From: an uncultured Eubacteriales bacterium
Lineage (GTDB): Bacteria > Bacillota > Clostridia > Oscillospirales > CAG-272
NCBI GenBank assembly: GCA_900546695.1
Contig: URDX01000001.1
Location: 96,614 to 160,613, forward strand
Direction: 5' to 3'
Length of the DNA: 64,000 bases
Part shown: positions 3,497 through 55,238 of the stretch, in pieces
Layout of the letters: each line of letters opens with the position of its first letter
Position numbering within the stretch: position 1 is the stretch's first letter
Notes under the pieces: model-generated
Seen by the model: the letters and a program-made list of their open reading frames with translations, nothing else
Told to the model about the DNA's origin: nothing
Databases searched by the model: none
Position numbers and translations under genes: made by a program

Positions 3497-3817
3497 TGTC
3501 CTCGTCTGAGTACAACTGAATAATACAGCACATGTACGTGCGAAAAAAGGCTTTTCCTGCCTCGTGCGTGATGCGTCGGTTAATTAAACCCACAACTATT
3601 AAAAGGAGTCCGAGTCGGACGGGGGGAATGCAGACCTCCCTCTCTGCCCTGCGATTGACGAATTATATGTCCGTCACCACGGCAGAACAGGATGCTGGGA
3701 GCACAAAGCCGCCCGGGAGGACACCTACCTTGCTGCGGCAGGGTTTTTAATTGCCTGCGCACACGGCGATGCGGGGCTTTTTTTATTTTTTCGGGCATGC
3801 AGAAGCATCGGGTACAT

Positions 3818-10327: not shown

Positions 10328-11283
10328 CAGAGGTTGGTTATTCAGATAATTCCAATGTCGGAATTAATCAGCGGTATGCGTAAGCAGCTGCTGCTCTGCC
10401 GTACTGCATCATTGCAGCAAGGAAGTCGGTATACTGCGGATATGCAGCATATGCAGATGCCATAGACTCTATGGAGTTAACTATTGTCTTGTCGCTGATG
10501 AGCGTTCCGTCAAGAGTATATACATTGATCTCAAGCTCCTCGCTCAGGTTCTGAGCAAATACGCCGACGACAACGTAGTATCTCGAGCGAGCGGTATCAT
10601 ATACAATGTCCTTTCCGCTAAACTCGCCCAAAAGCTCTCCGTTTTCCTTATACTTAACTACTACCTTGATGTTCTCGGTATTATACTGAGAATCGTCAAT
10701 GGTAAAGTTGTACTTGAAGGAGATAGAATCATCACAGTAAAGCTGTCTTGCCTTATAGGTTATTCCGGAAGCTCCCTCGTTAACATTCTTGCTGAACGTA
10801 TTCTTATAGTCGGTGTTTGCAGGAAGTCTGAGTGCCTTCATGGCATCCGTAAGATTTGCATTTGCAAGTGCATCGGTGCTGTAATCCTTGAACTGCTGTG
10901 CAGCTGCTATATAGTCAAGGAGATGCACCATAAGTCTGTTAAGCGATGTATCTGTGCTTCTGCCAAGCATCGTGTAGAGATAGGAAGTTATATTAGCGGT
11001 ATAAACTGCGGTGCTCTCATAAGTAACGCCATCCTTTACACCGTAAACATATACATCAACATCGTCAACTGCGCACTGAGGAGTAGAGCCGTATGCAAAT
11101 ACATATCTGTCTTTGCTTGCCTCATAAGAATATTCGGTTACGATCTTCTCAACATCGCCCAAGTTTTCTTTACGATGCTCAACAAACTTTACATAGAGGC
11201 TGTCGTATGCTGCTACATCCGCCTTGTTAATCTTTGCATTGATGTTGAGGACATCCATAAGGGTTACAGAGTAGGTTGCTACC
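10304..11283. repeat. 980-bp direct repeat, copy A (last ~305 codons + 3' UTR + terminator of protein A)
   Basis: The sense translation (NELGICA..VATYSVTLMDVLNINAK...YGRAAAAYAYR) is identical to copy B. The antisense ORF (10923.. vs 15465.., identical for about 120 aa) is also identical. Identity in two reading frames implies near-perfect nucleotide identity. The offset between copies is 4542 bp. Identity ends at ...GGTTGCTACC. Confidence 0.9.
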
Positions 11284-14200: not shown

Positions 14201-14705
14201 AGGTAATTATCTCGCCGTCACTTACATTAAAGCCGCGCGGCAATGTAAGCGTCTTTTTGACTACGGGTCCGTAAACAACGCCGTTATATTTGGTATCCTT
14301 AGTTCTTGAATGACAATAGTTTACCATCCAAAGATCACCGTTTATTGCAGCAATCGCAGTTTTACCCTCTCCGTTTTTGCTGTTAAAATTTGAAAGTATC
14401 TTTGATGTCTGCAAGAGCTGATTGGAATACGCACCGGCGCTCACAACATCGAGATAAAGATCCCGCTGTGAAAGGTCAAATTCAACAACGCTGAAATCCT
14501 TTGCCCCGTATGTAGAACTCGACGGAAGCTCGTAATAGTCGTAGCTTACGCCGTCGTACAGAGTTTTGGATGCTTTCGGAGATGTCCCCAAGACCGTCCC
14601 GGCGGCAGCACTCAGCGATACAGAAAAAGAAAGCGCTGATCCCGATACTACGGTTGCCGCTGAAATTAACCAAGCCGTTATTCTACTGCTGACTTTTGTT
14701 TTCAT
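10368..14705 (-). CDS. Giant secreted multidomain protein A: phosphodiester glycosidase (NAGPA/DUF2233-like) domain, CBM9-like module, Cys-rich repeats, cohesin-like module, shared C-terminal cassette
   Basis: 1445 aa. Signal peptide MKTKVSSRITAWLISAATVVSGSALSFSVSLSAAAG. AIAAINGDLWMV ... NAFLLDGGGSATMV is typical of phosphodiester glycosidase family proteins. PVIDGKLDDAYKAS...AAYFLYDSDYIYAYVTV is CBM9-like. TCTQTGSKSIHCSGCDE-type Cys modules are present. GDTLTFTLSLSD..LKSLRVKPVFDSLFFEIVS is cohesin-like. Confidence 0.85.
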   Translation of the reverse strand: MKTKVSSRITAWLISAATVVSGSALSFSVSLSAAAGTVLGTSPKASKTLYDGVSYDYYELPSSSTYGAKDFSVVEFDLSQRDLYLDVVSAGAYSNQLLQTSKILSNFNSKNGEGKTAIAAINGDLWMVNYCHSRTKDTKYNGVVYGPVVKKTLTLPRGFNVSDGEIITSACIPEETPYESDFYTFGVTDDYVPFMCNPGTGITVTNSTRKTELYTEALNRLPVEGATVVYTDKGCLNNYALDDAYEVVIDVPYDYKVAHGCNITGTVSGIYGPSDSGNPTMKQNRLILTARGAAQISKLSSYAVGDTVTVSVNTYDKWGHYTDLLHRIAEGVGGHIPLVIDGEAFNSGLNNLYATSIIGYTSTGSIKFLTLDSVSSTSSSKYFPIADMPALCKELDIVNAFLLDGGGSATMVTLDSGSYKLQGTPSDGSERAVVNAIILSHGPEREAQGSFTPQPTYNDDLSKLRFTSSEMMKYFLQQTPLKAEKLVSLGYSETENALEINTVTDYDPYFYINYSKSSVSFSADDCKYAVLTYKNPTSNSDKAVKASFFPCAGSITAASPECTVTVDLPQNDSYQSTVIDLSGLSKWSGTVNAMRWDFFDEASIGDRLYVKSLIFCATETEANAVAANEKNNANISFGSEQMLRHTPVIDGKLDDAYKASCGVIMNNTDIKHALTGKPLSDNLRNKYTGDMWAAAYFLYDSDYIYAYVTVHDSTLTPMTEITEKNAHRNNNAFVSVWDGADWPGSSVEVLLNATNGYAYATGSSGGYGSNFAAYGTDTPSTEYAYSLNPGGDGYVVEARIYAPGYKQGDTVSVALGANDFVSGNYNFYRFGNIYAKDNGADFDATVTLGDSYEKHTHIWQTDYTVDVPATCTQTGSKSIHCSGCDEIKPGSEVTIPMTAHSYVLSSSVAATCTQAGSNTYSCSVCSRKDERNTPALGHSYGTDGVCTRCGAKEKPSLSVYTESGALKAGDTLTFTLSLSDCTSLKSLRVKPVFDSLFFEIVSMRWLISGTSISDTSGGIAVAAFAAETADVSGDILECELKVKEGTSAGEYSVGFDVVLKSKASGVETAIDITQPETWTVTVEPEHVHDYVYTCDPTQKNSAYKAGHIGTCKTCGAVSGVIAHNTNELGICADCGANVKLLVATYSVTLMDVLNINAKINKADVAAYDSLYVKFVEHRKENLGDVEKIVTEYSYEASKDRYVFAYGSTPQCAVDDVDVYVYGVKDGVTYESTAVYTANITSYLYTMLGRSTDTSLNRLMVHLLDYIAAAQQFKDYSTDALANANLTDAMKALRLPANTDYKNTFSKNVNEGASGITYKARQLYCDDSISFKYNFTIDDSQYNTENIKVVVKYKENGELLGEFSGKDIVYDTARSRYYVVVGVFAQNLSEELEINVYTLDGTLISDKTIVNSIESMASAYAAYPQYTDFLAAMMQYGRAAAAYAYR

Positions 14706-14869: not shown

Positions 14870-15825
14870 CAGAGGTTGGTTATTCAGATAATTCCAATGT
14901 CGGAATTAATCAGCGGTATGCGTAAGCAGCTGCTGCTCTGCCGTACTGCATCATTGCAGCAAGGAAGTCGGTATACTGCGGATATGCAGCATATGCAGAT
15001 GCCATAGACTCTATGGAGTTAACTATTGTCTTGTCGCTGATGAGCGTTCCGTCAAGAGTATATACATTGATCTCAAGCTCCTCGCTCAGGTTCTGAGCAA
15101 ATACGCCGACGACAACGTAGTATCTCGAGCGAGCGGTATCATATACAATGTCCTTTCCGCTAAACTCGCCCAAAAGCTCTCCGTTTTCCTTATACTTAAC
15201 TACTACCTTGATGTTCTCGGTATTATACTGAGAATCGTCAATGGTAAAGTTGTACTTGAAGGAGATAGAATCATCACAGTAAAGCTGTCTTGCCTTATAG
15301 GTTATTCCGGAAGCTCCCTCGTTAACATTCTTGCTGAACGTATTCTTATAGTCGGTGTTTGCAGGAAGTCTGAGTGCCTTCATGGCATCCGTAAGATTTG
15401 CATTTGCAAGTGCATCGGTGCTGTAATCCTTGAACTGCTGTGCAGCTGCTATATAGTCAAGGAGATGCACCATAAGTCTGTTAAGCGATGTATCTGTGCT
15501 TCTGCCAAGCATCGTGTAGAGATAGGAAGTTATATTAGCGGTATAAACTGCGGTGCTCTCATAAGTAACGCCATCCTTTACACCGTAAACATATACATCA
15601 ACATCGTCAACTGCGCACTGAGGAGTAGAGCCGTATGCAAATACATATCTGTCTTTGCTTGCCTCATAAGAATATTCGGTTACGATCTTCTCAACATCGC
15701 CCAAGTTTTCTTTACGATGCTCAACAAACTTTACATAGAGGCTGTCGTATGCTGCTACATCCGCCTTGTTAATCTTTGCATTGATGTTGAGGACATCCAT
15801 AAGGGTTACAGAGTAGGTTGCTACC
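14846..15825. repeat. 980-bp direct repeat, copy B
   Basis: See copy A. Upstream of 15825 / 11283 the two genes are still homologous (NELGICANCGDNKSLK vs NELGICADCGANVKLL) but diverged. Confidence 0.9.
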
Positions 15826-18677
15826 TTAAGACTCTTGTTATCGCCGCAATTAGCACATATACCAAGTTCATTGTAGTTATGTCCGAGTGCAGGAACGACT
15901 ATATCGCCCGATTCAGACTCTTCACCCGGATTGTCGCAACCGCTTCTCTTGCAGTACTTGGTATATGCTCTACCTTCATCCGTGCAAGTAGGCTCAGTCT
16001 TGAATTCGTACTCCCAGTCGTGACCGAGAGCGGGGATCTCTACTGCAGTACCATCCTTGATGGCGCCGCAGACGGTGCACTTTTCTGCAGATGTGCCTGC
16101 AACCTCGCAGGTAGCCTCTACAGTTACGGTGCGCTTGTAGTCATGATCGAGCATAGCGACATCCTGCGCAGAGCCTTCAACCTCAGCGCCGCAAACGGTG
16201 CACTTTTCAACAGAAGTACCAACTGCAGTGCAGGTAGGCTCAACAGTGGTTACGCGCTCAGTATTGACACAGCCACCAAGGCAGCTATCAAGAACAATGT
16301 TGGTAAGAGCGCCATTAAGAACAGCAACCGTCAAATTGCCACCATAATTCTTAAGGTTAATGCCATTTTCCTCGGTTCCGAGACCTATGTTGTATATAGA
16401 ATTTCCAACATAAGCTCTTCCGATATAGTTGTTAGGCGCGTAGCCTTCACCGATGTGAATCTTAAGCTCAACAGCGTTCTTGCTATCGGCAAAAGCATAA
16501 TCGACGCCTGCCTTCGCAATGAGTGTGGCACCGGTATCTACAGAAATATTATCTGCAAACGTAGAAGCGCCATTCTGGTTAAATATGCTGCAAGCGAAAC
16601 TATCCGTTGTCCAAAGATTCTTTGCGGTGAAGTCAAATTTAATCTCAGCTGTATTCGACCAAAACGGTCCAACATTGTCCGTCTTATCAGGATTACCAAT
16701 AGTAAAGTATGCAACATTCTCAGCATCATCAGCTTCAATGTAAACGTAGAAATAATCCTTGTCATATACTACATATGCGGTAGCGCCGTTTACATAATAC
16801 TTAGCGCCGGAGTCATATGCAGCATCCTTGGTTCCGTCAACCGCAGCGGTTACATAAGGAACCTTCGACGGAGCGTTAACATACTCGCCGCATCTCTCAC
16901 ACTTGCCGCTTGTAGTGGTATGACCGAGAGCAGGAGTAGTCTCTACAGTAAAAGGATTGCCGCAAACCGTACATACGCTTGTAACCTTGCCCTGTTCTAC
17001 ACAGGTGGGCTCGGTAGTGGTAAGCTCACCGGCAGTATGTGCAAGCTTCGGAATTTCAGTACGGGAATCTACGCCACCGCACTCAGCATAATCAACACAG
17101 TGGATAGACTTTACGCCCATCTTTGTGCATGTAGGCTTAACATCTATAGTATAATCCGACTCCCAGACATGGGTATGATTATATTTCTGACCGCTAAGTT
17201 CGATAGTTCCGTCAACGGGAGTTTCCCATGCATGACCGATAAAATACGACTTCTGCACGCCACCATACACGTTCAGCGAATAGTCTATTACATCACAAAT
17301 TCCAAGGTTAACAAGATACTTGTTGCCCTCCGCAAGTTTAGTTCCATCAAGAGCATACTCAACGATGTAACCACCATCATAAGTCGAAACTGCATACTTA
17401 GAGTTATTCTTCAAATAATCAGCTGCAGAATTCCACTTTGCTCCAAGGTCATCACCATTCGCTTGCTGTTTGTATGCAAAGGGCTGATATGCATTTATAC
17501 GAATTCCAGCAGCCTCTGTCTGCGTAGCAACATCTCTGAATATTGAAACAATCACTGATTCAGAATAAGTCATGTTGTTACTATCTCCGTACTGATTCCA
17601 TGCATCAGGGAGCAAGCCGCCCGTGGGGTCCTTGACATCAACAGCTACATATATGTTGTCGTTATCCCAAAGGAAATATGCTGTCGCGCCGCTCACCTGC
17701 TGAGGCTCATCGGCATACGATGCTCCACCAGCGTTACTATTGTTAATATTGCTAAGATCAAGATTAATCTGCGCAGACTTCTTGTAAGCGCCCTCAATAT
17801 TACCATCAACCTTAGCAGTCTCCTGAAGAACTATCTTCTGACCGCAAACAGAACAAGTCCCGTCAACGATATCATGAGCAGTCTTCGGAATCGGTGTTAT
17901 ATCGGTAACACCCTTGCATTCAGCATAGTCTACACAGTGACGAGACTTAGAACCTGCCTTAGAGCAGGTGGCGCGTGTGTCCTCAGTAAACTCGTCCTCA
18001 TAGACATGCGTATGCGTAGCACTATATGTCGCACCTAACGTTAAAACAGTGTAACTAGGATGCGCACCCCACTGCCAAAATCCCCAGTAATCGCCTTCTC
18101 CGGCGACGCATGAGCCGTTGACGAAATTACCACTTGCAAAGACAATCTCCTTGTTAAGAGAGGTCTTATTTGCTACTCTCACCTCAGCAGTAAAATCATC
18201 GCCGTTTACTGTAATCTTAAATTCACTCGAGTCAGCAGCACCGGAAGGGATATTAGATCCCATATTCACTTTTCCTTTGGTATCCTGCCACATCTGAACG
18301 TTACCAACAACACCGGATGTAGGATTATGGAACGGTTGAATAATAAAGTTAATTGACTCATTATTTATCGCATCATCATTCAAAGGCGTAATCGTAAGCG
18401 TTTGATTAAGATAGTTGCCGGCAGCCGCAGGCATCGTTCCTTCAACAAAGAGGTAGATATAACTATCATCATACAGGTAGCTGTATGTAACATCCCCTAC
18501 CACCTTCTTGTAGGATGTAGCATAAGCATCATCCTTCACAGCGTCGATAGTAGGCGTATACTTCAGTACTTCATTCGTATCAGCAGCCCCGATGCCGACT
18601 GTGGCAAGCGAAGCTGACTGAAGTACAAACAAAGAAGCGACTACTGTCGAAAGCACTTTTTTGAATGTTCTTTTCAT
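14910..18677 (-). CDS. Giant secreted protein B: three CBM9-like sugar-binding modules, multiple Cys-rich repeats, shared C-terminal cassette
   Basis: The likely start is ATG 18677 (AGGAGA 7 nt upstream), giving the signal peptide MKRTFKKVLSTVVASLFVLQSASLATVGIGAA; the ORF-track start at 18734 is over-extended. CBM9-like segments: TPTIDAVKDDAYATS..YLYDDSYIYLFVEG, VDGNIEGAYKKS..AYFLWDNDNIYVAVDV and AAVDGTKDAAYDSG..YVVYDKDYFYVYIEA. About 6 full and 3 short Cys modules. Confidence 0.85.
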   Translation of the reverse strand: MKRTFKKVLSTVVASLFVLQSASLATVGIGAADTNEVLKYTPTIDAVKDDAYATSYKKVVGDVTYSYLYDDSYIYLFVEGTMPAAAGNYLNQTLTITPLNDDAINNESINFIIQPFHNPTSGVVGNVQMWQDTKGKVNMGSNIPSGAADSSEFKITVNGDDFTAEVRVANKTSLNKEIVFASGNFVNGSCVAGEGDYWGFWQWGAHPSYTVLTLGATYSATHTHVYEDEFTEDTRATCSKAGSKSRHCVDYAECKGVTDITPIPKTAHDIVDGTCSVCGQKIVLQETAKVDGNIEGAYKKSAQINLDLSNINNSNAGGASYADEPQQVSGATAYFLWDNDNIYVAVDVKDPTGGLLPDAWNQYGDSNNMTYSESVIVSIFRDVATQTEAAGIRINAYQPFAYKQQANGDDLGAKWNSAADYLKNNSKYAVSTYDGGYIVEYALDGTKLAEGNKYLVNLGICDVIDYSLNVYGGVQKSYFIGHAWETPVDGTIELSGQKYNHTHVWESDYTIDVKPTCTKMGVKSIHCVDYAECGGVDSRTEIPKLAHTAGELTTTEPTCVEQGKVTSVCTVCGNPFTVETTPALGHTTTSGKCERCGEYVNAPSKVPYVTAAVDGTKDAAYDSGAKYYVNGATAYVVYDKDYFYVYIEADDAENVAYFTIGNPDKTDNVGPFWSNTAEIKFDFTAKNLWTTDSFACSIFNQNGASTFADNISVDTGATLIAKAGVDYAFADSKNAVELKIHIGEGYAPNNYIGRAYVGNSIYNIGLGTEENGINLKNYGGNLTVAVLNGALTNIVLDSCLGGCVNTERVTTVEPTCTAVGTSVEKCTVCGAEVEGSAQDVAMLDHDYKRTVTVEATCEVAGTSAEKCTVCGAIKDGTAVEIPALGHDWEYEFKTEPTCTDEGRAYTKYCKRSGCDNPGEESESGDIVVPALGHNYNELGICANCGDNKSLKVATYSVTLMDVLNINAKINKADVAAYDSLYVKFVEHRKENLGDVEKIVTEYSYEASKDRYVFAYGSTPQCAVDDVDVYVYGVKDGVTYESTAVYTANITSYLYTMLGRSTDTSLNRLMVHLLDYIAAAQQFKDYSTDALANANLTDAMKALRLPANTDYKNTFSKNVNEGASGITYKARQLYCDDSISFKYNFTIDDSQYNTENIKVVVKYKENGELLGEFSGKDIVYDTARSRYYVVVGVFAQNLSEELEINVYTLDGTLISDKTIVNSIESMASAYAAYPQYTDFLAAMMQYGRAAAAYAYR

Positions 18678-19311
18678 TCTTTCATCTCCTATAAAAAATA
18701 TTTTTGTTTTGCCTTCGGAGGGGCACACCCACATTCCCCTCCGATGGGCAAATTCAAATTAGTATATGCCGACAACGTCGGCTTACGCTTGTAATTGTAC
18801 CACAGAACGGAAACAATGTCAACTGATTTTCACACATTTTCTGTTTAATGTACACAAATATTTTTGATGTCGTTTTGTGTATCTCTGACAAAAGCGCGAA
18901 AAGCCTTGTATTATAAGGGTTTCTGCGATTTTAACGCACTGTGAATCGACTTGTCAGCAGTCACAATCGGCATAAAATTTGTGCAACATTTCTGTGCATT
19001 TTACCGTCGTATATTTCGTCTGTACGGTCAAAAAATGAATTTCGATTTAACACGGCGGCATTTCATTCATAATTCCAAAATATGTATAAAGCATGTGAAT
19101 TCTCCGATTATCTATCATTATAAATTATCGCGCACCCGCACAGCGGGCGGTTTTTTCAAGAGGATTTTTGAATTGTCACATGCCGATTTTGAAATTATAA
19201 AATTAAAAGAGAAAAAGCTCTTATATTTTTTCGACAAGCGCTTTATTTTTTCCGACAAATAGTATATAATAGGCACGGATACCGAAGCCTTACATTAATG
19301 AGGTAAATGCA

Positions 19312-25565: not shown

Positions 25566-28208
25566 TTACTTAAGCATCCTGCGTACGGTATCCGCAACCG
25601 CTGCAAGCGCTGCGGGTATCTTATCCGCATCCTTCGCCCCCGATGTTGCGGAATCGGGACGTCCGCCGCCCTTGCCGCCTGCTATGGCGCTTATCTCGCG
25701 GAGGATAGCGCCCGCGTTTGCCCCTGCTGCGACCGCTGCTTTACCGCATGCGCAGGTAAAGTTGAGCTTTCCGCCGCAATCGGTAGAGATAACGACAACA
25801 TAATCGTCGTGCGATGCCTTTATCTCGTCACAGACAGCTCTTGCAGTGTCAACGCCGCTGCCGCTCGTCTGCTTTGTCACTACCTTGACCGCGCCGACCT
25901 CGACCGCGCTGCTGAGAATAGCCTCGGTCTGCATGGAGGCGATACGGGAGTTAAGCATCTCGGTCTCGCGCTTTGCGCCGCGCAGCTCTGTCTGGAGCGC
26001 TGCCGCGCGGCGGGCGATGTCGTGTACATTAGCCGCCTTAAGCTCCTTTGCGGTATCGGAAATGAGCGCATCGCGCTCGGAGAGCAGTGCAAGCACGCCG
26101 AGACCCGTCGTTCCCTCGATACGGCGCACGCCTGCGGCGATACCCGTCTCGGAGATTATCTTGAAGAGTCCGAGCTTTGCGGTATTCGATGCGTGCGTAC
26201 CTCCGCACAGCTCGGTCGAGAAATCGCCCATCTTTACCATGCGGACAACGCTGCCGTACTTCTCACCGAAGAGGGCGGTAGCGCCGCTCTTCCTTGCGGT
26301 CTCAACATCGGTCTCGACGGTAACTATATCCTCGCCGCGCAGTATCTCCTCGTTTACAAGAGCCTCAACGCGGGCAAGCTCCTCCTCGGTCATAGCCGAG
26401 TAGTGCTTAAAGTCGAATCTCACGCGCTCCGCGTCAACATAAGAGCCCGCCTGTTCGACATGGTCGCCGAGAACGGTGCGCAGTGCCGCCTGAAGCAGAT
26501 GCGCGGCGGAGTGGTTGCGGCGGATAGCCTCGCGGCGTACCGCGTCTATGCGTGCCGTAACGGTGTCGCCTATCGATACGGGGGTGCCGTCAAGCTCGCA
26601 GATGTGCATATAGATGCCGCTGTTTTTCTTGGTATCGACGACGGGAATGCTGCGTCCCGCGCATTCGATAATACCCGTGTCGCCGACCTGACCTCCGCCC
26701 TCTCCGTAGAAGGGGGTACGGTCGAGAACTATCATGACCTTGCCGTCCGATGCGTCGGGCAGCTCCTCGGTCGTCTCTGCGTCGATGATAGCGAGCACAT
26801 GCGCCTCGCTCTCGGTATCGGTATAGCCTGTAAACTCGGTCGCGGGCAGCTTTCCGAGTGCGGGGATTGCGTCGCTCGTCCAGCCGAGATCGCCCATTGC
26901 GGCACGTGCGGCTCTCGCGCGCTTTTTCTGCTCCGCAAGAAGCGTCTCAAAGCCCGCCTCGTCGATGCCGAGACCCGCCTCGAGCGCTATCTCGCGCGTA
27001 AGGTCTACGGGGAAGCCGAAGGTGTCGCTGAGCTTGAAAACATCCTCTCCCGGGAGGGTATCCGAGCCCGCTGCCTTTGTTTCCTTTATCATGGAATCGA
27101 GGATGTCGAGACCGCTGTCGATGGTAGCGGCAAAGCGATCCTCCTCGATGTTAACGACCTTCTTGATATAATCGAGCTTTTCGGTAAGCTCGGGATACTC
27201 ACTGAAATTCTCACGCGCTACGACGGGGACGATATCGGCAAGGAATGTGCCCTTGATGCCGAGCAGTCTGCCGTGACGTGCGGCGCGGCGGAGCAGACGG
27301 CGAAGCACATAGCCCCTGCCCTCGTTCGAGGGTACAACGCCGTCGCAGATGAGGAAGGTCGTGCTTCTGATATGGTCGGTTATGACGCGGAGCGAGATGT
27401 CCTTCTTCTCGTCCTCGCCGTACTTGACATTCGCCTTTTCGCTGATGGCGAGCATGATATTGCGGACGGTGTCGACCTCGAACAGATTGTCAACGCCCTG
27501 CATAAGGCATGCAAGACGCTCAAGTCCCATACCCGTGTCGATGTTCGGGTTTGCAAGGCGGGTATAGCCGCCCTTTCCGTCGCCGTCGAACTGCGTGAAT
27601 ACGAGGTTCCAGAATTCCATAAAGCGGTCGCAGTCGCAACCCGGCTTACAGTCGGGCTTTCCGCAGCCGTACTTCTCGCCGCGGTCGAAATGTATCTCGG
27701 AGCAGGGGCCGCAGGGACCGCTGCCGTGCTCCCAGAAGTTATCCTCCTTACCGAGACGGACAATGCGCTCTGCGGGAACGCCTATCTTGTTGTGCCAGAT
27801 GTCAAAAGCCTCGTCGTCATCGAGATAGATGGTCACCCACAGCTTGTCCTCGGGCAGCTCAAGCACCTTGGTGCAGAATTCCCATGCCCACGGAATAGCT
27901 TCGTTCTTGAAATAGTCGCCGAAGGAGAAGTTTCCGAGCATCTCGAAATATGTACCGTGACGTGCGGTAATACCGACCCGCTCGATATCCGGAGTACGGA
28001 TGCACTTCTGACAGGTCGTCATGCGGTGACGCGGCGGCTCGACCTCTCCCGTAAAGTATTTTTTGAGCGGGGTCATGCCCGCATTGATGAGCAGTATGGA
28101 CTTGTCGTCGATAGGTACGAGCGGATAGCTCTTATGACGGAGATGTCCCTTTGACTCGAAAAATGAGAGATACATCTCGCGAAGGTCGTTAAGTGAGGTC
28201 CATTTCAT
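25566..28208 (-). CDS. alaS: Alanine--tRNA ligase
   Basis: MKWTSLNDLREMYLSFFESKGHLRHKSYPLVP..., FTQFDG, the editing-domain HxxxH motif (HSAAHLL) and a C-terminal DHHA1-like region. The likely start is ATG 28208; the ORF-track start at 28244 adds 12 aa. Confidence 0.95.
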   Translation of the reverse strand: MKWTSLNDLREMYLSFFESKGHLRHKSYPLVPIDDKSILLINAGMTPLKKYFTGEVEPPRHRMTTCQKCIRTPDIERVGITARHGTYFEMLGNFSFGDYFKNEAIPWAWEFCTKVLELPEDKLWVTIYLDDDEAFDIWHNKIGVPAERIVRLGKEDNFWEHGSGPCGPCSEIHFDRGEKYGCGKPDCKPGCDCDRFMEFWNLVFTQFDGDGKGGYTRLANPNIDTGMGLERLACLMQGVDNLFEVDTVRNIMLAISEKANVKYGEDEKKDISLRVITDHIRSTTFLICDGVVPSNEGRGYVLRRLLRRAARHGRLLGIKGTFLADIVPVVARENFSEYPELTEKLDYIKKVVNIEEDRFAATIDSGLDILDSMIKETKAAGSDTLPGEDVFKLSDTFGFPVDLTREIALEAGLGIDEAGFETLLAEQKKRARAARAAMGDLGWTSDAIPALGKLPATEFTGYTDTESEAHVLAIIDAETTEELPDASDGKVMIVLDRTPFYGEGGGQVGDTGIIECAGRSIPVVDTKKNSGIYMHICELDGTPVSIGDTVTARIDAVRREAIRRNHSAAHLLQAALRTVLGDHVEQAGSYVDAERVRFDFKHYSAMTEEELARVEALVNEEILRGEDIVTVETDVETARKSGATALFGEKYGSVVRMVKMGDFSTELCGGTHASNTAKLGLFKIISETGIAAGVRRIEGTTGLGVLALLSERDALISDTAKELKAANVHDIARRAAALQTELRGAKRETEMLNSRIASMQTEAILSSAVEVGAVKVVTKQTSGSGVDTARAVCDEIKASHDDYVVVISTDCGGKLNFTCACGKAAVAAGANAGAILREISAIAGGKGGGRPDSATSGAKDADKIPAALAAVADTVRRMLK

Positions 28209-28271
28209 GGTCTGATATCCTTTCTCAGCCGCGCACGGCGGCATCTTCTGTATATTATAAAATATTTCGGC

Positions 28272-29645
28272 TCAAAGGTCAATATCTTCCGCCGTAATTT
28301 CTGTGCCGTATGCGGCATGAGCGGGGGATTTTTTTTCGTTATCAGCCGCAGCCGCCGTATCGGGCGCGCCGAAACCGACCTCCGACCCGCCTACAACGCC
28401 GTCAAAGGTCGCATCGGGATTCTGCATCAGTATGCCGAGCACCGCCATGTAATCACGCAGCAGCTCACGCGGGGTGAGCAGCGTATCCGCGCCCGCGCGC
28501 TCGAGGCAGCGGGAAAGAAAGCTCTCGATATTTTCAGGCGTGACGGGCGGCTCCCAGCCGTAATACTGCGCGTGCAGCTCGGTCATACGGGCAAGCAGTG
28601 CAAGCAGCTCGTTATCCGAGAGACGGCGCAGCCTGATAACGGGGCTGAGCAGATTCTTGTAGTCGGGCGAATCGTATCTGCTGTCGCACAGTCTGCTGCG
28701 CAGCGCCTCATACGAGAACAGCCCGCGGCGAGGGTCCTCGAGAAATTGCGGCGTTCCGCCGAATATCCAGCCGAGCCCTTCCGAGCGCCCCTGCATGGTA
28801 TCGTTGAAGAGCGAAAGCAGCTTTTCGTAGTTATTCTCGCGCGAGATGCGGTTCGGTATCTTATACAGATTTACGCATTCGTCGATGAACACGACCAATC
28901 CGCGGTAGCCCGTCTTTCGCGCAAAGACCGCAAGCAGCTTTATCATGTCCTGCCAGTTGTCGTCGCCGATGATGTCTCCGACGGGGAGCTCGCGCTTTGC
29001 CTCCGTCTTTGTGCGGTATTCTCCGCGCAGCCACTTCATGCAGCGGCTCTGCACATCGTCGTCCCCGTCCTGCACAGCACGGTAATAGGTCATTATTACG
29101 GCGGAAAAATCAAAGCCGCCAACATACCCCTGCAGCTCGCGCGATGTCGAAAGTATCCTGCGCGACATCTCCGCCGCAAAATCCTCGCTGCCGTAGGTAT
29201 ATCCCTCGGCTATCAGCGCGCCCTGAACATCGGACAGCCAACGCGCTATCATAACGGGTAGCGCTCCGCCGTCGGGGGAGGTCTTGCACGCGAGATTCTT
29301 TATCAGCTCGCGGTAGGTCGCAATGCCCGTTCCCGAGCCGCCGCATATCCTGCGCTCGGGCGAAAGATCGGCATCCGCCGTCACAAAGCCGCGCTCGCAT
29401 GCATAACCGCGCAGCAGCTGCATGAGAAAGCTCTTTCCGCTTCCGTATCTGCCTATGATGAAGCGCATAGCCGAGCCGCCCTCGCTGACAGTCTCAAGGT
29501 CCGAAAGCAGCGCCTCGAGCTCGTCGGTCCTTCCTATCGCAATGTACGGCGCACCGACCCGCGGAACCACTCCCGCGGCAACCGAGCCGACAAGCGCCGA
29601 GAGAACGCGCTTCGGTACGCGCTCACGCTTATTTTCAACCGCCAT
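28272..29645 (-). CDS. DUF2791-type (BrxD-like) P-loop ATPase
   Basis: 457 aa. Walker A is RFIIGRYGSGKSFLMQLL and Walker B is YRGLVVFIDECVNLY. The overall layout (..FGGTPQFLEDPRRGLFSYEALRSRL..) matches what I recall of DUF2791/BREX BrxD-like ATP-binding proteins. GGGAGG RBS. The start lies 5 nt after the upstream stop. Confidence 0.7.
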   Translation of the reverse strand: MAVENKRERVPKRVLSALVGSVAAGVVPRVGAPYIAIGRTDELEALLSDLETVSEGGSAMRFIIGRYGSGKSFLMQLLRGYACERGFVTADADLSPERRICGGSGTGIATYRELIKNLACKTSPDGGALPVMIARWLSDVQGALIAEGYTYGSEDFAAEMSRRILSTSRELQGYVGGFDFSAVIMTYYRAVQDGDDDVQSRCMKWLRGEYRTKTEAKRELPVGDIIGDDNWQDMIKLLAVFARKTGYRGLVVFIDECVNLYKIPNRISRENNYEKLLSLFNDTMQGRSEGLGWIFGGTPQFLEDPRRGLFSYEALRSRLCDSRYDSPDYKNLLSPVIRLRRLSDNELLALLARMTELHAQYYGWEPPVTPENIESFLSRCLERAGADTLLTPRELLRDYMAVLGILMQNPDATFDGVVGGSEVGFGAPDTAAAADNEKKSPAHAAYGTEITAEDIDL

Positions 29646-29650
29646 TCAGC

Positions 29651-31864
29651 TTACCTCCCTGATCCGCAGCTGCGGAGAAATTCCTCCGCCTCGTCTCTGT
29701 AATCCTCTGTTATCGCATAGCCCGATGCGGTGTGCTCCGCGATCGAGTCGCCTATATCGTCGTATAACAGCTCGTTTATACGGTCGCACAGCGCCGCGGG
29801 CAGTATCGCGGCAGACAGCGCATAGCGCTCAAAGCCCGCGCCGTCTCCGTCGAGCAGCATCCGCAGCCCGATTAGCTCGGGGCTGCCTGAGTCGGCAGCG
29901 CCCGCCGCCTCATCCGCATCATCTGCTGTGCCCATCGAGCCTGTAGTATGCACCGCACCCGCAGTGCCCGTCGCGCTCGCAGTATACACCGAGCCCGCAG
30001 CGCCCGTCGCGCTCGCAGTATACACCGAGCCCGCAGCGCCTTCTGCGCACGTTTTGTCCAAAGCGCCGTTCGCGCCCGTTTTATCCGACGTGCGCTCAGT
30101 GCCCGTCTTGCCCGCGGCGTTCTCTGCGCTCACATTACCGTCGGACGCGCCTCCGACGGCAGAGCGGACATCCGCAGCATCCGAAAACGCCTCTTCAAGC
30201 CGCTCGGTCATTCTCCATGAGCGGCGCTCTATCTCCATAGCACGATCAAACGACATTCCGCTGTTCTCGGGCGCGTAGAAATGCTCGTATTCGGGCGCGA
30301 CCTCGGGTGGTGCGGCGGGCCTTTTTCCCGCACGGCGCACGCTCTCCTCGCGCTCGATGACGGGCGCAAAATATCGGTCTATCGCCCGCCGCATCTCCTC
30401 GGGCAGCGCAGTTATCTTAAAGCGCGCCTTGATACCGAGCAGTCTGCGAACCTGATTTTCCGCATACTTGACCGCGGCGGTCACGGCTTCAGAGTCCGCG
30501 CAGCCGCATGCTCTTATATAGTCGATGCGCAGACGGCACTTGACCTCCGACGAGCACACCGCGCCGCTGTACGACTCGGCTATATACCTCTCGAGACTGC
30601 CGTCGGCTGTCGCACCGCCGCCCATTGCCGTCATAGCCGCCGTTATTGCGGCGGGCATGTGTCGCTCGTAGCAGCCACGCCCCGCAGCCGTCATATACTT
30701 GCTCTCCTGCCATGCATAATGCGATAGCACCGACGCAAGCGACAGCGGGTCGGCTGCGCCGCTCTCGATATCGTAGCAGACAAAAAACTCGGGCAGCGCC
30801 GTATATCGCCCCGCTATCGCCGCGATATCATGCATATATTCGCGCGGCAGCGAAACGCCGTGTATCAGACAGTAATCGCGCAGCCACGGAATGACCGAGT
30901 TGCGTATGCCGATGACCGTCTCCGCATAGCCCGTAATAACGCGGCAGAGCAGCTTTACACCGTCCTCAGGCGCGATAAGGTCGGGCAGATTTATTACCTC
31001 GTACAGAAACAGCAGCACATAGCTGCGCGACGCTTTTATCAGCTTACCCGCACGGAGACAGCTGCGCCACCTGAAATAATAGGCAAGCTGCGCGTCCGTC
31101 ATCATCGAATATTGCGGCACATAGGAAACGAATTCCGCATACGGCACCTCCTGCCCCTCTCTCGAAAAGAAGGAGACCGCGTCGGCGCGGAAGCGCTCGT
31201 AAAAGTTGTATGCAGACGGCCATGTCAGGATATCGACATGCCGCAGAAACGGGTGACGCGGCTCATACGACCGAATCAGTCCCGTATCGCGAAACGAGCT
31301 GCTGCGCGGCACGGCGACCGAATAACCCGTGTCTCCGCCCCTGCTGCTCTGCCCCGCGCTGCCTCGGCTGCGCAGGCGTGCAAACAGCTCGGATATCTCG
31401 TCGTCTGCAGCGCTCCGCTCGCGCCGCAGCGGCTGTATTGCAGACTGCTGCGAAACTGCGGGACGAGAAGCGTCCGCGCCGCCCGAGAGTGATATCTCCT
31501 GCGGCAATGCAGCGGTCTGCGGTGCGGGCGCGGGCTCTGTCCCACGCCAGCCGCTCCTTCTCCCGCTCGGCGGTACGATGTCCCGCATGTCAGAGTTGCC
31601 GCCGTCGGCGCTATACGGCGTACCGTATCCTCCGACATCCTCCGCGCTCCCGTCGGAAAGCTCCGCACGCGGGCGCTCTCCGCTGTCTCGTACCGAGACC
31701 GAATCGAGCGAGCGCTCGTCTGTGCCTATCTCTATCAGCGGTGTTTCGGTGTCGGGAGAAAACTCCCGAAGATACTTTTTCGGTATGGGAGGGAGCGCCT
31801 CAAAGACATCGTCGTCAAAGCTGCCGCCGCCCGAGCTCCGCCCGTCTTTTCCGTTATCGTACAC
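29651..31864 (-). CDS. TerB-N / TerB-C domain protein with long disordered N-terminal and central regions
   Basis: 737 aa with a GTG start at 31864 behind a strong GGAGGAAGGGAGGGG RBS. The TerB-N-like core is YAEFVSYVPQYSMMTDAQLAYYFRWRSCLRAGKLIKASRSYVLLFLYEVINL. The TerB-C-like end is LLDGDGAGFERYALSAAILPAALCDRINELLYDDIGDSIAEHTASGYAITEDYRDEAEEFL. Confidence 0.7.
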   Translation of the reverse strand: MYDNGKDGRSSGGGSFDDDVFEALPPIPKKYLREFSPDTETPLIEIGTDERSLDSVSVRDSGERPRAELSDGSAEDVGGYGTPYSADGGNSDMRDIVPPSGRRSGWRGTEPAPAPQTAALPQEISLSGGADASRPAVSQQSAIQPLRRERSAADDEISELFARLRSRGSAGQSSRGGDTGYSVAVPRSSSFRDTGLIRSYEPRHPFLRHVDILTWPSAYNFYERFRADAVSFFSREGQEVPYAEFVSYVPQYSMMTDAQLAYYFRWRSCLRAGKLIKASRSYVLLFLYEVINLPDLIAPEDGVKLLCRVITGYAETVIGIRNSVIPWLRDYCLIHGVSLPREYMHDIAAIAGRYTALPEFFVCYDIESGAADPLSLASVLSHYAWQESKYMTAAGRGCYERHMPAAITAAMTAMGGGATADGSLERYIAESYSGAVCSSEVKCRLRIDYIRACGCADSEAVTAAVKYAENQVRRLLGIKARFKITALPEEMRRAIDRYFAPVIEREESVRRAGKRPAAPPEVAPEYEHFYAPENSGMSFDRAMEIERRSWRMTERLEEAFSDAADVRSAVGGASDGNVSAENAAGKTGTERTSDKTGANGALDKTCAEGAAGSVYTASATGAAGSVYTASATGTAGAVHTTGSMGTADDADEAAGAADSGSPELIGLRMLLDGDGAGFERYALSAAILPAALCDRINELLYDDIGDSIAEHTASGYAITEDYRDEAEEFLRSCGSGR
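29941..30038. repeat. In-frame 36-bp tandem repeat (about 2.7 copies) inside the TerB-domain gene
   Basis: CCCGTCGCGCTCGCAGTATACACCGAGCCCGCAGCG occurs at 29967-30002 and again at 30003-30038, with a degenerate copy at 29941-29966. It encodes (AAGSVYTASATG)x2 followed by TAGAVHTTGSMG. Confidence 0.85.
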
Positions 31865-32049
31865 AGTCTGCCCCTCCCTTCCTCCGCAGATATGCGGTCA
31901 TGTTTGAATCATATTATTTTATCATATATGTTCTCCCGTGTCAATGTTTAGCATACGTAAAATTCGGTGCGATGCGGGATGAAGGTCTCGCCCGAGCTCC
32001 GTTTCGGGAGCTTCGTTCCGAATTCGATAAAAAACTTTAAAAAAACTAT

Positions 32050-32092: not shown

Positions 32093-32168
32093 GCTGCTAT
32101 GGCTCAGTTGGTAGAGCACATCCTTGGTAAGGATGAGGTCATCAGTTCGACTCTGATTAGCAGCTCCA
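32093..32168 (+). tRNA. tRNA-Thr(GGT)
   Basis: GCTGCTATGGCTCAGTTGGTAGAGCACATCCTTGGTAAGGATGAGGTCATCAGTTCGACTCTGATTAGCAGCTCCA. Anticodon stem CATCC/GGATG, loop TTGGTAA, encoded CCA. Confidence 0.9.
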
Positions 32169-49552: not shown

Positions 49553-49735
49553 GTGCACTCGGCATGTGTTACAACTTGGTGATGCAAGTCCGCTACCGAC
49601 ATAGCAGTAGGAGCTGTCAGAGGAGGGCAAGGGAATCCGTCGCAAGGCGGAGTCTGAAGGGAGCCCAAAGCAAAGCCTCGGTCTGACGAGCAACAACTTT
49701 TGCAGTGTACGGTAAAATGTCATCTACGGCACGCG
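49553..49735 (+). mobile_element. 5' fragment of a group II intron (class C-like), truncated
   Basis: GTGCACTCGGCATG..GGTGATGCAAGTCCG..GCAGTAGGAGC..GCAAGGGAATCCGTCGCAAGGCGGAGTCTGAAGGGAGCC..GCAAAGCCTCGGTCTGACGAGCAACA. This parallels, block for block, the domain I 5' region of group IIC introns as I remember it from the Oceanobacillus iheyensis intron (GUGUGCCCGGCAUG..GGUGAGAGUCCC..GCAAGGGUGUCCGUGGCGACAUGGAAUCUGAAGGAAGCGG..GCAAACCUUCGGUCUGAGGAACA). It starts 5 nt after a terminator, the classic class C target. No room remains for domains II-VI or an IEP before the MFS gene. Confidence 0.65.
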
Positions 49736-52060: not shown

Positions 52061-52136
52061 TATCGGCTCTTATTTGACATATCGGCTCTTATTTGACATA
52101 TCGGTTCTTATTTGACCTGTCAGCTCTTAGCCCAAG
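52061..52136. repeat. 19-bp tandem repeat (3 good copies + 1 degenerate copy overlapping the stop and last codons of the DUF4340 gene)
   Basis: TATCGGCTCTTATTTGACA (52061-52079), TATCGGCTCTTATTTGACA (52080-52098), TATCGGTTCTTATTTGACC (52099-52117), TGTCAGCTCTTAGCCCAAG (52118-52136). Confidence 0.85.
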
Positions 52137-55226: not shown

Positions 55227-55238
55227 TGCCTTGCCTCC

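What the first reader, a model, noticed from the sequence alone, without database searches (positions are those of the whole stretch)
28272..31864. TerB-N/TerB-C protein plus DUF2791-type ATPase, translationally coupled and wedged directly upstream of alaS: a Shango-like pair without its helicase
Seen in the sequence. A 737-aa protein has a TerB-N-like core (..YVPQYSMMTDAQLAYYFRWRSCLRAGK...YVLLFLYEVINL) and a TerB-C-like C-terminus (..LCDRINELLYDDIGDSI...ITEDYRDE). Five nt downstream starts a 457-aa P-loop ATPase (GRYGSGKSF; VVFIDE). Alanyl-tRNA synthetase follows about 60 nt later on the same strand. Established knowledge. TerB-N/TerB-C proteins were predicted by comparative genomics (Aravind group, 2012) to work with a DUF2791-type ATPase and a helicase. 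That three-gene arrangement was later shown to be anti-phage under the name Shango (Sorek lab, 2022). Inference. No helicase lies on either side here: tRNA-Thr is upstream and alaS is downstream. Either this is a two-component variant or degenerate relative, or the pair has a non-defence role such as membrane-linked nucleic-acid surveillance coupled to an essential gene. The protein also has about 230 aa of Pro/Ser/Arg-rich disorder at the N-terminus and an expandable 12-aa tandem repeat, which are not typical of described family members.
Basis: partly seen in the sequence, partly recalled or inferred. Interest (0 to 1): 0.7.

Follow-up and report, generated by a model that had tools for sequence, protein, structure and literature searches.

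The report
Helicase-less Shango gene pair before alaS
Two of the three genes of the Shango anti-phage system (a TerB-like protein and its AAA+ ATPase) sit intact and under selection directly in front of the alanyl-tRNA synthetase gene of a gut Clostridia bacterium, while the helicase gene that every described Shango system has is absent from the 64-kb window; about a quarter of related lineages show the same helicase-less state.

Summary
On the minus strand, a 737-aa SngA-type protein (PADLOC SngA 3.5e-36; Pfam TerB_N 3e-14) lies 5 nt before a 457-aa SngB-type ATPase (PADLOC SngB 3e-159; PF10923/DUF2791 1e-147). alaS starts 63 nt further on. No SngC helicase is found anywhere in the 64 kb.

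Relatives with 57-69% identical SngB mostly carry a true SngC (about 810 bits) next to sngB. The window belongs to a clade of three SngB clusters at 90% identity in which sngA-sngB-alaS is a conserved block while both flanks differ. Seven further clusters also lack a nearby SngC, so 10 of 44 informative clusters are helicase-less.

The pair is not decaying. dN/dS is 0.09 for SngB and 0.17 for SngA, as in helicase-bearing lineages, and the Walker motifs and terminal peptide motifs are kept.

The locus shows no defence-island, phage or compositional signature.

Best reading: a functional sensor plus AAA+ half of a chromosomal, vertically inherited Shango-type system whose helicase gene is unlinked or dispensable, now sharing a transcription unit with alaS. 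I could not test whether sngC lies elsewhere in the genome.

This is a new variant of a known kind, of moderate interest.

The parts
31916..31944 (-). Sigma-70-like promoter of sngA (TTGACA-17-TAAAAT, with a TG extension)
   Evidence: Matches 11 of 12 consensus positions. The region 31903..31963 is 87% identical in L001 and L027, and homology between the window and those loci stops just upstream of it.
29651..31864 (-). sngA: 737-aa TerB_N / TerB_C-type protein (Shango SngA)
   Evidence: PADLOC SngA 3.5e-36; Pfam TerB_N 3.2e-14; TerB_C 4.4e-4, below cut-off. AlphaFold2 model: folded core at aa 195-570 (pLDDT mostly above 90), folded C-terminal domain at aa 660-735, the rest disordered.
31286..31864 (-). 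sngA N-terminal low-complexity tail (aa 1-193), with two conserved short motifs at aa 15-30 (31775..31822) and aa 35-47 (31724..31762)
   Evidence: pLDDT below 50; Ser/Gly/Arg/Asp-rich. The tail is full of indels between strains. The motifs DxFWD[IL]xxLLPxKK and DTxxVEI are conserved across lineages. In the window and L001 the tryptophan is lost.
30713..31192 (-). TerB_N domain match (aa 225-384)
   Evidence: Pfam PF13208, 53.6 bits against a cut-off of 25.
29891..30154 (-). Disordered Ala/Gly/Thr/Ser-rich linker (aa 571-658) that splits the TerB_C region. It contains the 36-nt tandem repeat at 29945..30040.
   Evidence: TRF: period 36, 2.7 copies, 93% matches. Copy number differs from strain L020. 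pLDDT 30-35.
29660..29887 (-). sngA C-terminal folded domain (aa 660-735). It includes the TerB_C match (aa 678-725) and the acidic ITEDYRDE motif.
   Evidence: Pfam TerB_C model positions 100-146. Secondary structure is H-H-H-strand-strand-H with pLDDT about 95. Foldseek gives only weak matches to winged-helix DNA-binding domains of LysR regulators (E 0.2-2, probability up to 0.96).
28272..29645 (-). sngB: 457-aa AAA+ ATPase of the DUF2791 / BrxC_BrxD family (Shango SngB). Walker A at 29430..29453, Walker B at 28878..28895, conserved acidic C-terminal tail at 28275..28301.
   Evidence: PADLOC SngB 3.2e-159 against BrxD 1.7e-45; Pfam PF10923 1.4e-147. The model has an AAA+ fold with a helical insert (pLDDT 76; best PDB matches HslU, ClpX and Hda, TM-score 0.3-0.57). 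The tail motif is conserved in all classes.
28254..28282 (-). Promoter-like site (TTGACC-17-TATAAT) overlapping the sngB stop codon; possible own promoter of alaS
   Evidence: Matches 11 of 12 consensus positions. Conserved in L001 but not in L002, L023 or L024, where the gap is 30-56 nt and AT-rich. No terminator-like site on the minus strand between sngB and alaS.
25566..28208 (-). alaS (alanyl-tRNA synthetase, 880 aa from the MKW start), the third gene of the conserved block
   Evidence: Pfam tRNA-synt_2c 8e-193, tRNA_SAD and DHHA1. It follows sngB directly in L001, L002, L018-L034, L105 and L106.
32093..32168 (+). tRNA-Thr(GGT), divergent neighbour with its own promoter and terminator. It marks a synteny breakpoint and is not part of the block.
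   Evidence: ARAGORN and Rfam; promoter and terminator. It is absent next to sngA in L001, L002, L023, L027, L032 and L105.

Best explanation
The locus is an intact, selectively maintained SngA-SngB module. It belongs to a chromosomal, vertically inherited Shango-type (SngABC) system of gut Clostridia. In this clade the sngC helicase gene is no longer linked to the pair.

Transcription (inferred). The pair is transcribed from a sigma-70-like promoter. sngA and sngB are translationally coupled. With no terminator before alaS, transcription runs on into alaS, so the three genes form one conserved block.

Mechanism (inferred from homology). SngB is a stand-alone AAA+ ATPase of the BrxD type. That type is tightly paired with a Ski2/Lhr-like helicase elsewhere and has been proposed to load or activate it. 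SngA is a soluble scaffold or sensor. It has a large fold with no solved relative, a winged-helix-like C-terminal domain, and disordered tails that carry short docking motifs. Here the pair still assembles as the sensor and loader half of the system. It most likely acts with a helicase encoded in trans, either an unlinked sngC or another SF2 helicase.

Shown: gene identities, absence of the helicase from 64 kb, recurrence of this state in relatives, purifying selection, and the absence of a mobile or defence-island context.

Inferred: co-transcription with alaS, the loader role, and the helicase in trans.
For: Identity: PADLOC SngA 3.5e-36 and SngB 3.2e-159; Pfam TerB_N and PF10923.

Ancestral three-gene state: 34 of 44 informative SngB clusters at 90% identity have SngC beside sngB. 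Those helicases score 785-817 bits on the PADLOC SngC model.

Loose linkage: SngC is displaced by 0.9-2.0 kb of inserted genes in five clusters (L007, L013, L035, L058, L071 group). So the operon can be broken without loss of the gene.

Retained function:
- dN/dS is 0.09 (SngB) and 0.17 (SngA) for window against L001, both helicase-less. This equals helicase-bearing pairs.
- 210 of 244 invariant SngB positions are kept and Walker A and B are intact.
- The SngB C-terminal tail motif and the SngA N-terminal motifs are conserved in helicase-less lineages.

Conserved block: sngA-sngB-alaS with its promoter is kept in three clusters, while the upstream neighbours differ (tRNA-Thr/Xer; ftsQ-ftsZ; glmS-glmM) and so do the downstream ones (MscS; UDG or glyoxalase; PFL activase).

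Co-transcription: the sngB-alaS gap is 30-63 nt and has no terminator.

Loader analogy: BrxD is described as a stand-alone ORC/Cdc6-type AAA+ that forms a tightly linked dyad with the BrxHI helicase and may load it (PMC12839542). After their own models, SngB next best matches BrxD and SngC next best matches BrxHI.

Chromosomal, non-mobile context:
- GC and GC3 match the neighbours.
- No PADLOC hit in the ten neighbouring genes.
- No relatives in IMG/VR contigs or phage records.
Against: - No sngC was seen, and I could not search the rest of the genome. The helicase in trans is pure inference.
- Ten independent or semi-independent clusters lack SngC within 3.5-28 kb. This is equally what a helicase-independent module would show.
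- Co-transcription with alaS is predicted, not measured. The window and L001 have a good promoter-like site for alaS inside the sngB end.
- The loader role is an analogy taken from a comparative-genomics paper on BrxD. No biochemistry exists for SngB, and there is no solved structure by sequence.
- The winged-helix assignment for the SngA C-terminus rests on weak Foldseek matches (E 0.2-2).
- The window and L001 have lost the otherwise near-invariant tryptophan of the N-terminal FWD motif. This could signal a lost interaction.
Confidence: 0.45

Rival explanations
1. Autonomous two-component variant. SngA and SngB work without any SF2 helicase. For example, an ATP-driven SngB oligomer recruited by SngA could act directly on DNA or on a phage component. 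SngC would then be an accessory that several Clostridial lineages have dropped.
For: Ten of 44 informative SngB clusters lack SngC within the available 3.5-28 kb. The genes that follow them are unrelated: alaS, ftsK, GH20, LRR/radical SAM, DUF6198, PGA_cap. These clusters fall in several parts of the SngB tree, and the sister group of the alaS clade (L051-L056) is also helicase-less. Selection on the pair is undiminished. SngA-SngB adjacency is invariant in every locus with enough sequence, unlike SngB-SngC.
Against: Every experimentally validated Shango has three genes. The homologous BrxD is described as tightly paired with its helicase. Neither SngA nor SngB shows a recognisable effector domain such as a nuclease, pore or protease. 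The displaced-SngC loci show that unlinking without loss does happen.
Confidence: 0.3
2. Housekeeping rather than defence. In these Clostridia the chromosomal SngAB(C) genes serve a core DNA or cell-envelope process, such as handling DNA at the division site or membrane. The 'Shango' label carried over from Proteobacteria would then be misleading for this clade.
For: SngB and SngC are 57-70% identical across all sampled lineages, with low dN/dS and clade-wise conserved synteny such as NrdD in clade C. No mobile-element, phage or defence genes flank the locus. Neighbours are often division or envelope genes: ftsK (L038, L081-85, L089), ftsQ-ftsZ (L001), ftsZ (L107), Mur ligase/glmS/glmM (L019, L105), MurJ (L014), and a Xer recombinase plus a D-Ala-D-Ala carboxypeptidase in the window. 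In this clade the pair shares an operon with an essential gene.
Against: The same family scores at full length on models built from proven anti-phage systems. It sits on 697 plasmids, and a Clostridium plasmid carries SngABC between a relaxase and an IS110 transposase. The neighbours vary from lineage to lineage, so guilt by association is weak. SngA evolves fast, with hypervariable tails, and its repeat differs in copy number between close strains, as expected of a protein in an arms race. I did not measure how many genomes of the group carry the genes.
Confidence: 0.15
3. Non-functional remnant of a Shango operon that lost its helicase and survives only because transcription of alaS runs through it.
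For: The helicase is missing. The TerB_C match is weak and split by a low-complexity insert. The FWD motif is degraded in the window and L001. If alaS depends on the upstream promoter, that could protect the DNA from deletion.
Against: Both ORFs are intact in all three SngB clusters of the clade. dN/dS is 0.09 and 0.17, while dS reaches 0.5-1.1 for window against L001 and is saturated against L002. Read-through transcription would not preserve amino-acid sequence, Walker motifs or terminal peptide motifs. A helicase-bearing relative also has a split TerB_C.
Confidence: 0.05

Closest known systems
Shango anti-phage system (SngA TerB-like protein, SngB ATPase, SngC DEAD/DEAH helicase). Described by Millman et al. 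2022 (bioRxiv 10.1101/2022.05.11.491447) and Johnson et al. 2023 (PMC10250203).
   Same: SngA and SngB are clear family members by the PADLOC models (3.5e-36 and 3.2e-159), in the same order and translationally coupled. Close relatives of this locus carry the full three-gene operon.
   Different: No SngC in 64 kb. The pair is followed by alaS as a conserved block. The context is chromosomal housekeeping genes, not a defence island or hotspot. The described systems sit in E. coli defence islands and in the P. aeruginosa hotspot cDHS1. Anti-phage activity has not been tested for this clade.
BrxD ATPase - BrxHI helicase dyad of type 2 BREX (Pgl)
   Same: SngB belongs to the same Pfam family as BrxD (PF10923) and also hits the BrxD models (1.7e-45). 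The SngC of relatives hits BrxHI second best (about 425 bits). In the literature BrxD is a stand-alone ORC/Cdc6-type AAA+ tightly linked to its helicase, possibly as a loader.
   Different: SngB scores 154.6 bits against a cut-off of 350 on the NCBIfam BrxD equivalog. None of the PADLOC scans of the window's ten largest ORFs and ten neighbouring genes reported a PglZ, PglX, PglW or full-length BrxC. Here the ATPase is paired with a TerB_N protein, and the helicase is missing.
TerB-N / TerB-C proteins with a DUF2791 ATPase and a helicase, as predicted by Anantharaman, Iyer and Aravind 2012 (Mol Biosyst 8:3142). I cite this from memory and through; the paper itself could not be opened.
   Same: Same domain pair and same ATPase family. 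The acidic C-terminal motif (ITEDYRDE) is present.
   Different: The predicted triad includes the helicase. No canonical TerB domain and no tellurite-resistance genes are present. The protein has no membrane-spanning segment.
Other TerB-containing defence systems: Bunzi (BnzA) and Dionysus (DinB)
   Same: They share only the idea that a TerB-type domain acts as a sensor in defence.
   Different: Their partners differ (transmembrane or pore-forming proteins). They have no DUF2791 ATPase. Neither protein here matched any PADLOC model other than those listed.

Membership tests
Shango (SngABC) | SngA: protein with TerB_N and TerB_C domains | tested here: met
   PADLOC SngA 3.5e-36 over residues 146-728. 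Pfam TerB_N 53.6 bits (cut-off 25). TerB_C only 20.9 bits (cut-off 26.3), because a low-complexity insert splits it.
Shango (SngABC) | SngB: DUF2791 / BrxC_BrxD-family P-loop ATPase directly downstream of SngA | tested here: met
   PADLOC SngB 3.2e-159 over the full length. PF10923 1.4e-147. 5-nt gap after sngA. Walker A and B intact.
Shango (SngABC) | SngC: DEAD/DEAH SF2 helicase in the same gene cluster | tested here: not met
   No SngC hit in the ten largest ORFs of the window. No tblastn hit at E <= 1e-4 with three SngC proteins from relatives over all 64 kb. alaS occupies the position. The rest of the genome could not be searched.
Shango (SngABC) | Protects against phage when expressed | not testable with these tools
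   Shown only for E. coli and P. aeruginosa three-gene systems.
Shango (SngABC) | Typical location in defence islands or mobile elements (usual, not strictly defining) | tested here: not met
   No PADLOC hit in ten flanking genes. GC and GC3 match the neighbours. No relatives in IMG/VR or phage records. More distant family members are on plasmids.
BREX type 2 (BrxD) | BrxD equivalog score, and presence of the BREX core (BrxC/PglY, PglX, PglZ) and the BrxHI helicase | tested here: not met
   NCBIfam BREX_BrxD 154.6 bits against a cut-off of 350. The SngB model scores 529 bits against 154 for BrxD. None of the PADLOC scans of the window's ten largest ORFs and ten neighbouring genes reported a BREX core protein.
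Tellurite-resistance TerB proteins | Canonical TerB domain within a ter gene cluster | tested here: not met
   The Pfam scan returned only TerB_N and TerB_C, with no TerB domain. The neighbours are alaS, tRNA-Thr, Xer and MscS.

The most novel reading that the evidence does not exclude
In a large group of gut Clostridia, SngA-SngB is a vertically inherited, near-housekeeping two-protein machine that works without a dedicated helicase. In this clade it is hard-wired into the operon of the essential alaS gene. The TerB_N protein and its AAA+ ATPase would then be the true functional core of 'Shango', and the helicase an optional add-on. The system's role in these bacteria may go beyond phage defence, or differ from it, for example surveillance of DNA at the membrane or division site.
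Probability: 0.25. Interest if true: 0.6.

Novelty: new variant of a known kind. Interest (0 to 1): 0.42.

Why it matters
Shango is a validated anti-phage system whose mechanism is unknown. Detection tools are built around a three-gene cluster (stated from memory, not checked here). No paper found in the searches here describes a two-gene form.

This work shows a natural series of states: helicase adjacent, helicase displaced by inserted genes, and helicase absent. The SngA-SngB pair stays under strong purifying selection throughout. That identifies SngA-SngB as the invariant core.

It also gives a ready-made genetic test of what the helicase contributes. If the pair is autonomous, it redefines the minimal system, and the defence-finding tools miss about a quarter of the Clostridial instances sampled here.

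The housekeeping context and the slow, clade-wise evolution question whether every hit to a defence model marks a mobile immune gene. This matters for 'defensome' surveys of gut and rumen metagenomes, where Shango is reported as a frequently detected system.

Tried and rejected
1. Searching for sngC elsewhere in the source genome was not possible. The single genome-contig scan went on SngB and the single metagenome scan on the SngB alignment. A third protein search with SngC was judged unable to pick out one species' copy among thousands of equally similar hits, so it was not run.

2. Synteny argument for in-situ loss of sngC. An AP_endonuc_2 gene lies downstream of alaS in L105 and downstream of SngC in clade C. 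The two are not homologous at E < 1e-10, so I dropped the argument.

3. Test of whether the SngA N-terminal FWD motif or the SngB C-terminal tail is lost specifically in helicase-less lineages, which would have marked a helicase-docking site. Both are kept in most helicase-less lineages. Only the window and L001 lose the tryptophan, so there is no clean correlation.

4. tRNA-Thr plus the tyrosine recombinase as signs of an integrated island holding the pair. Rejected. The recombinase lies 3' of the tRNA, on the far side from sngAB. It has the Xer-type SAM-like N-terminal domain. A homologue (56% identity) lies upstream of sngA in a helicase-bearing relative, L009. GC content shows no step.

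5. T-box or other leader RNA for alaS. Rfam found none.

6. Solved structures. No sequence match for either protein. Fold searches gave only a generic AAA+ fold for SngB and weak winged-helix matches for the SngA C-terminus. The SngA core matched nothing.

7. The Anantharaman 2012 paper could not be opened.

8. Literature searches for SngA, SngB, SngC, DUF2791 or two-gene Shango variants found no mechanistic or variant description.

Full report
**What is in the sequence**

All three genes lie on the minus strand.
- A 737-aa ORF at 29651..31864 starts with GTG, 7 nt after a GGAGGGG ribosome-binding site. It sits about 50 nt downstream of a near-consensus promoter-like site, TTGACA-17-TAAAAT, at 31944..31916.
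- Its TAA stop is followed after 5 nt by the ATG of a 457-aa ORF at 28272..29645. A GGGAGG ribosome-binding site lies inside the end of the first gene. Translational coupling is therefore plausible.
- alaS follows. The start conserved in relatives and used in the NCBI gene call is MKWTSLNDL at 28208, which is 63 nt after the sngB stop.
- tRNA-Thr(GGT) lies divergently upstream at 32093..32168, with its own promoter and terminator.

**Identity of the two proteins**

The 737-aa protein matches Pfam TerB_N (3.2e-14; 53.6 bits, cut-off 25). It matches the PADLOC SngA model over residues 146-728 (3.5e-36). The TerB_C match is sub-threshold (20.9 against 26.3 bits) and covers only model positions 100-146.

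The 457-aa protein matches PF10923 (BrxC_BrxD, the former DUF2791) at 1.4e-147 and PADLOC SngB at 3.2e-159. BrxD models score far lower: PADLOC 1.7e-45, and NCBIfam 154.6 bits against a cut-off of 350. Walker A (GRYGSGKS, aa 65-72) and Walker B (VVFIDE, aa 251-256) are present.

**The missing helicase**

PADLOC scans of the ten largest ORFs of the window found no SngC. tblastn with three SngC proteins from relatives gave no hit anywhere in the 64 kb at E <= 1e-4. Ten flanking genes have no PADLOC hit at all. They include MscS, EamA, LiaF, a Xer-type recombinase, a D-Ala-D-Ala carboxypeptidase and an ECF riboflavin S component.

**Relatives**

SngB has thousands of close relatives in Clostridia metagenomes. 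The 8000-candidate limit was reached, and the best 120 hits are all at least 62% identical. I collected 107 related loci from genomes and metagenomes; with the window, 108 sequences carry SngB. sngA directly precedes sngB wherever the sequence allows it to be seen.

After clustering SngB at 90% identity there are 55 clusters, of which 44 have enough flank to judge:
- 34 have SngC next to or near sngB.
- 3 have alaS in that place.
- 7 have neither within 3.5-8 kb.

The helicases of relatives are true SngC (785-817 bits, full length; second-best match BrxHI). In five clusters SngC is pushed 0.9-2.0 kb away by inserted genes, for example an acetyltransferase, DUF2812 and PadR in L013.

The seven other helicase-less clusters are followed by unrelated genes: ftsK, PGA_cap, a ceramidase-like gene with GH20, LRR_5 with a radical SAM gene, and DUF6198. 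In a neighbour-joining tree of SngB the alaS clade is monophyletic. Its sister group (L051-L056) is also helicase-less.

**The alaS block**

The sngA promoter, sngA, sngB and alaS are conserved together in the window/L020, L001/L018/L025-L028, L002/L019/L030-L032/L105 and L023/L024/L029 lineages. Both flanks differ between them:
- Upstream: tRNA-Thr and Xer in the window; ftsQ-ftsZ in L001; Mur ligase, glmS and glmM in L019 and L105.
- Downstream: MscS in the window and L001; UDG, AhpC or glyoxalase in L019 and L105; PFL activase in L023.

Homology between the window and L001 stops at 31963, just above the sngA promoter. The sngB-alaS gap is 30-63 nt, AT-rich and free of terminator-like sites. 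The window and L001 have a promoter-like TTGACC-17-TATAAT overlapping the sngB stop. L002 has only 30 nt between the genes. Co-transcription is therefore likely but not measured.

**Is the pair decaying?**

No. Between the window and L001, both helicase-less, dN/dS is 0.09 for SngB, 0.17 for SngA and 0.035 for AlaS, at dS 0.37-1.1. Helicase-bearing pairs give 0.05-0.21 for SngB and 0.15-0.36 for SngA.

Of 244 SngB positions invariant in eleven helicase-bearing relatives, 210 are unchanged in the helicase-less clade, and most changes are conservative. The three major SngB clades are about equally distant from one another at 59-67% identity. The helicase-less clade is therefore not on an unusually long branch.

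**Anatomy of the proteins**

The SngB model (mean pLDDT 76) is an AAA+ fold with a long helical insert between the Walker motifs and a disordered C-terminal tail. The nearest solved folds are HslU, ClpX and Hda, with low TM-scores, and no solved relative exists by sequence. The last eight residues form a conserved acidic-hydrophobic motif, F/Y-x-x-[DE]-D-[IL]-[DE]-[FIL]. It is present in helicase-bearing, helicase-less and alaS-linked lineages alike.

The SngA model has these parts:
- a disordered tail (aa 1-193, apart from one helix);
- a confident core (aa 195-570) with no PDB match;
- a disordered Ala/Gly/Thr/Ser linker (aa 571-658);
- a confident three-helix plus hairpin C-terminal domain (aa 660-735).

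The C-terminal domain weakly resembles winged-helix DNA-binding domains (E 0.2-2). There is no transmembrane segment.

The N-terminal tail carries two short motifs conserved across nearly all lineages, DxFWD[IL]xxLLPxKK and DTxxVEI. The window and L001 keep the second but have lost the tryptophan of the first.

The 12-aa repeat lies in the linker and differs by one unit between the window and a strain whose SngB is identical. Relatives' SngA proteins range from 435 to 784 aa, with the same variable regions. A helicase-bearing relative also has a reduced TerB_C match. These features are therefore family traits and not peculiarities of this locus.

**Context and mobility**

GC (0.56-0.62) and GC3 (0.70-0.71) match the neighbours. 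The conserved SngB motifs retrieved no relative from 2.9 million IMG/VR contigs. tblastn found none in 50,697 phage records.

More distant family members (below 60% identity) are on 697 plasmids, mostly conjugative Klebsiella and Salmonella plasmids. A Clostridium estertheticum plasmid carries SngA-SngB-SngC between a relaxase and an IS110 transposase.

The family is thus mobile elsewhere. The Clostridial clade studied here looks chromosomal and vertically inherited. Clade-specific synteny supports this, for example NrdD near the operon in clade C. An ABC-auxiliary/DUF4340 cluster neighbours the operon in L014 and L017 and lies 20 kb away in the window.

**What is known**

Shango was described as a three-gene system (TerB-like protein, ATPase, helicase) with modest anti-phage activity in E. 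coli and P. aeruginosa. Its mechanism is unknown, and 'membrane surveillance' has been suggested. I found no paper describing a two-gene form or any biochemistry.

A 2026 comparative study describes BrxD as a stand-alone ORC/Cdc6-type AAA+ ATPase. It forms a tightly linked dyad with the Ski2/Lhr-like BrxHI helicase and may load or activate it (PMC12839542). By homology, SngB-SngC is the same kind of dyad.

**Interpretation**

The best-supported reading is a functional SngA-SngB module that has lost linkage to its helicase and now sits in one transcription unit with alaS. The pair would then work in one of two ways:
- With a helicase encoded elsewhere. The loader analogy and the loci with a displaced SngC favour this.
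- On its own. The recurrence of helicase-less lineages favours this.

The tools at hand could not settle the choice, and I give the two readings 0.45 and 0.30. A housekeeping role for the whole Clostridial clade remains possible (0.15) and is not exclusive of either. A decaying remnant is largely excluded by the selection data (0.05).

**Verdict**

This is a new variant of a known system, not a new kind of system. Interest is moderate. Its value lies in the natural helicase-plus and helicase-minus series, which makes the role of each Shango component testable. It also cautions that chromosomal Shango-type genes of gut Clostridia do not behave like mobile defence genes.

Noticed in passing
window 29945-30040 (minus-strand sngA, aa 609-644); L020: The 36-nt / 12-aa repeat (GAAGSVYTASAT) differs by exactly one unit between the window (737 aa) and a strain whose SngB is 100% identical (725 aa). 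This is a length polymorphism between closely related strains inside a disordered linker.
   Followed up: yes
window 28275-28301 (SngB C-terminus); all related loci: The last eight residues of SngB form a conserved motif, F/Y-x-x-[DE]-D-[IL]-[DE]-[FIL], at the end of a disordered tail. It is kept whether or not SngC is adjacent. It is probably a docking peptide for an unidentified partner.
   Followed up: partly
window 31724-31822 (SngA aa 15-47); related loci: Two short N-terminal motifs (DxFWD[IL]xxLLPxKK and DTxxVEI) are conserved in SngA across lineages that otherwise share about 30% identity. The window and L001 have lost the tryptophan (SFDDDVFEALPPIPKK).
   Followed up: partly
L089:9334-12081, L085:10751-13468, L081-L083, L038; L001:4531-6877; L107: Division and segregation genes often sit beside sngAB(C). 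ftsK lies 14 nt to 2.6 kb downstream of sngB in two separate helicase-less lineages. ftsQ-ftsZ lie just upstream of sngA in L001. ftsZ lies near the operon in L107. The window itself has a Xer-type recombinase and a D-Ala-D-Ala carboxypeptidase upstream.
   Followed up: partly
window 28228-28242: A small palindrome (GCCGC-cgtgc-GCGGC) lies in the alaS leader, between the -10-like box and the ribosome-binding site. It is conserved in L001 and is not followed by a T run. It could be an operator or a regulatory hairpin. No T-box was found by Rfam.
   Followed up: no
window 10368-14705 and 14910-18734 (minus strand): Two very large ORFs (1445 aa with a NAGPA phosphodiester glycosidase domain; 1274 aa with a weak CBM9 match) have GC3 of 0.51 and 0.43, against about 0.70 in the rest of the window. 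This suggests foreign origin or different codon usage.
   Followed up: no
window 3551-3781 (+): 6S RNA (Rfam RF00013, 48.6 bits, just above the gathering score of 46.4).
   Followed up: no
window 49636-49727 (+): An Rfam group-II intron D1-D4-3 match (37.6 bits, gathering score 32) lies about 170 nt after tRNA-Gly(CCC). No reverse-transcriptase ORF is beside it; the adjacent gene is an MFS transporter on the other strand. It may be an intron fragment.
   Followed up: no
window 61006-63183 (minus strand): A 725-aa ORF next to mnmG (gidA) has no Pfam or PADLOC match.
   Followed up: no
window 52120-56950 (minus strand); L014:2718-7652; L017:17452-21374: An ABC_tran / ABC2_membrane / ABC_transp_aux / DUF4340 gene cluster directly neighbours the SngABC operon in clade C relatives. 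It lies about 20 kb from sngAB in the window. This looks like residual long-range synteny.
   Followed up: partly
L108 (Clostridium estertheticum plasmid pCF002-344, NZ_CP086238.1 269366-282646): A canonical SngA-SngB-SngC operon, followed by an ABC-type ATPase gene, sits between a relaxase gene and IS110 transposase genes on a 344-kb plasmid. Its SngB is 45.5% identical to the window's. This is a mobile counterpart of the chromosomal Clostridial loci.
   Followed up: partly
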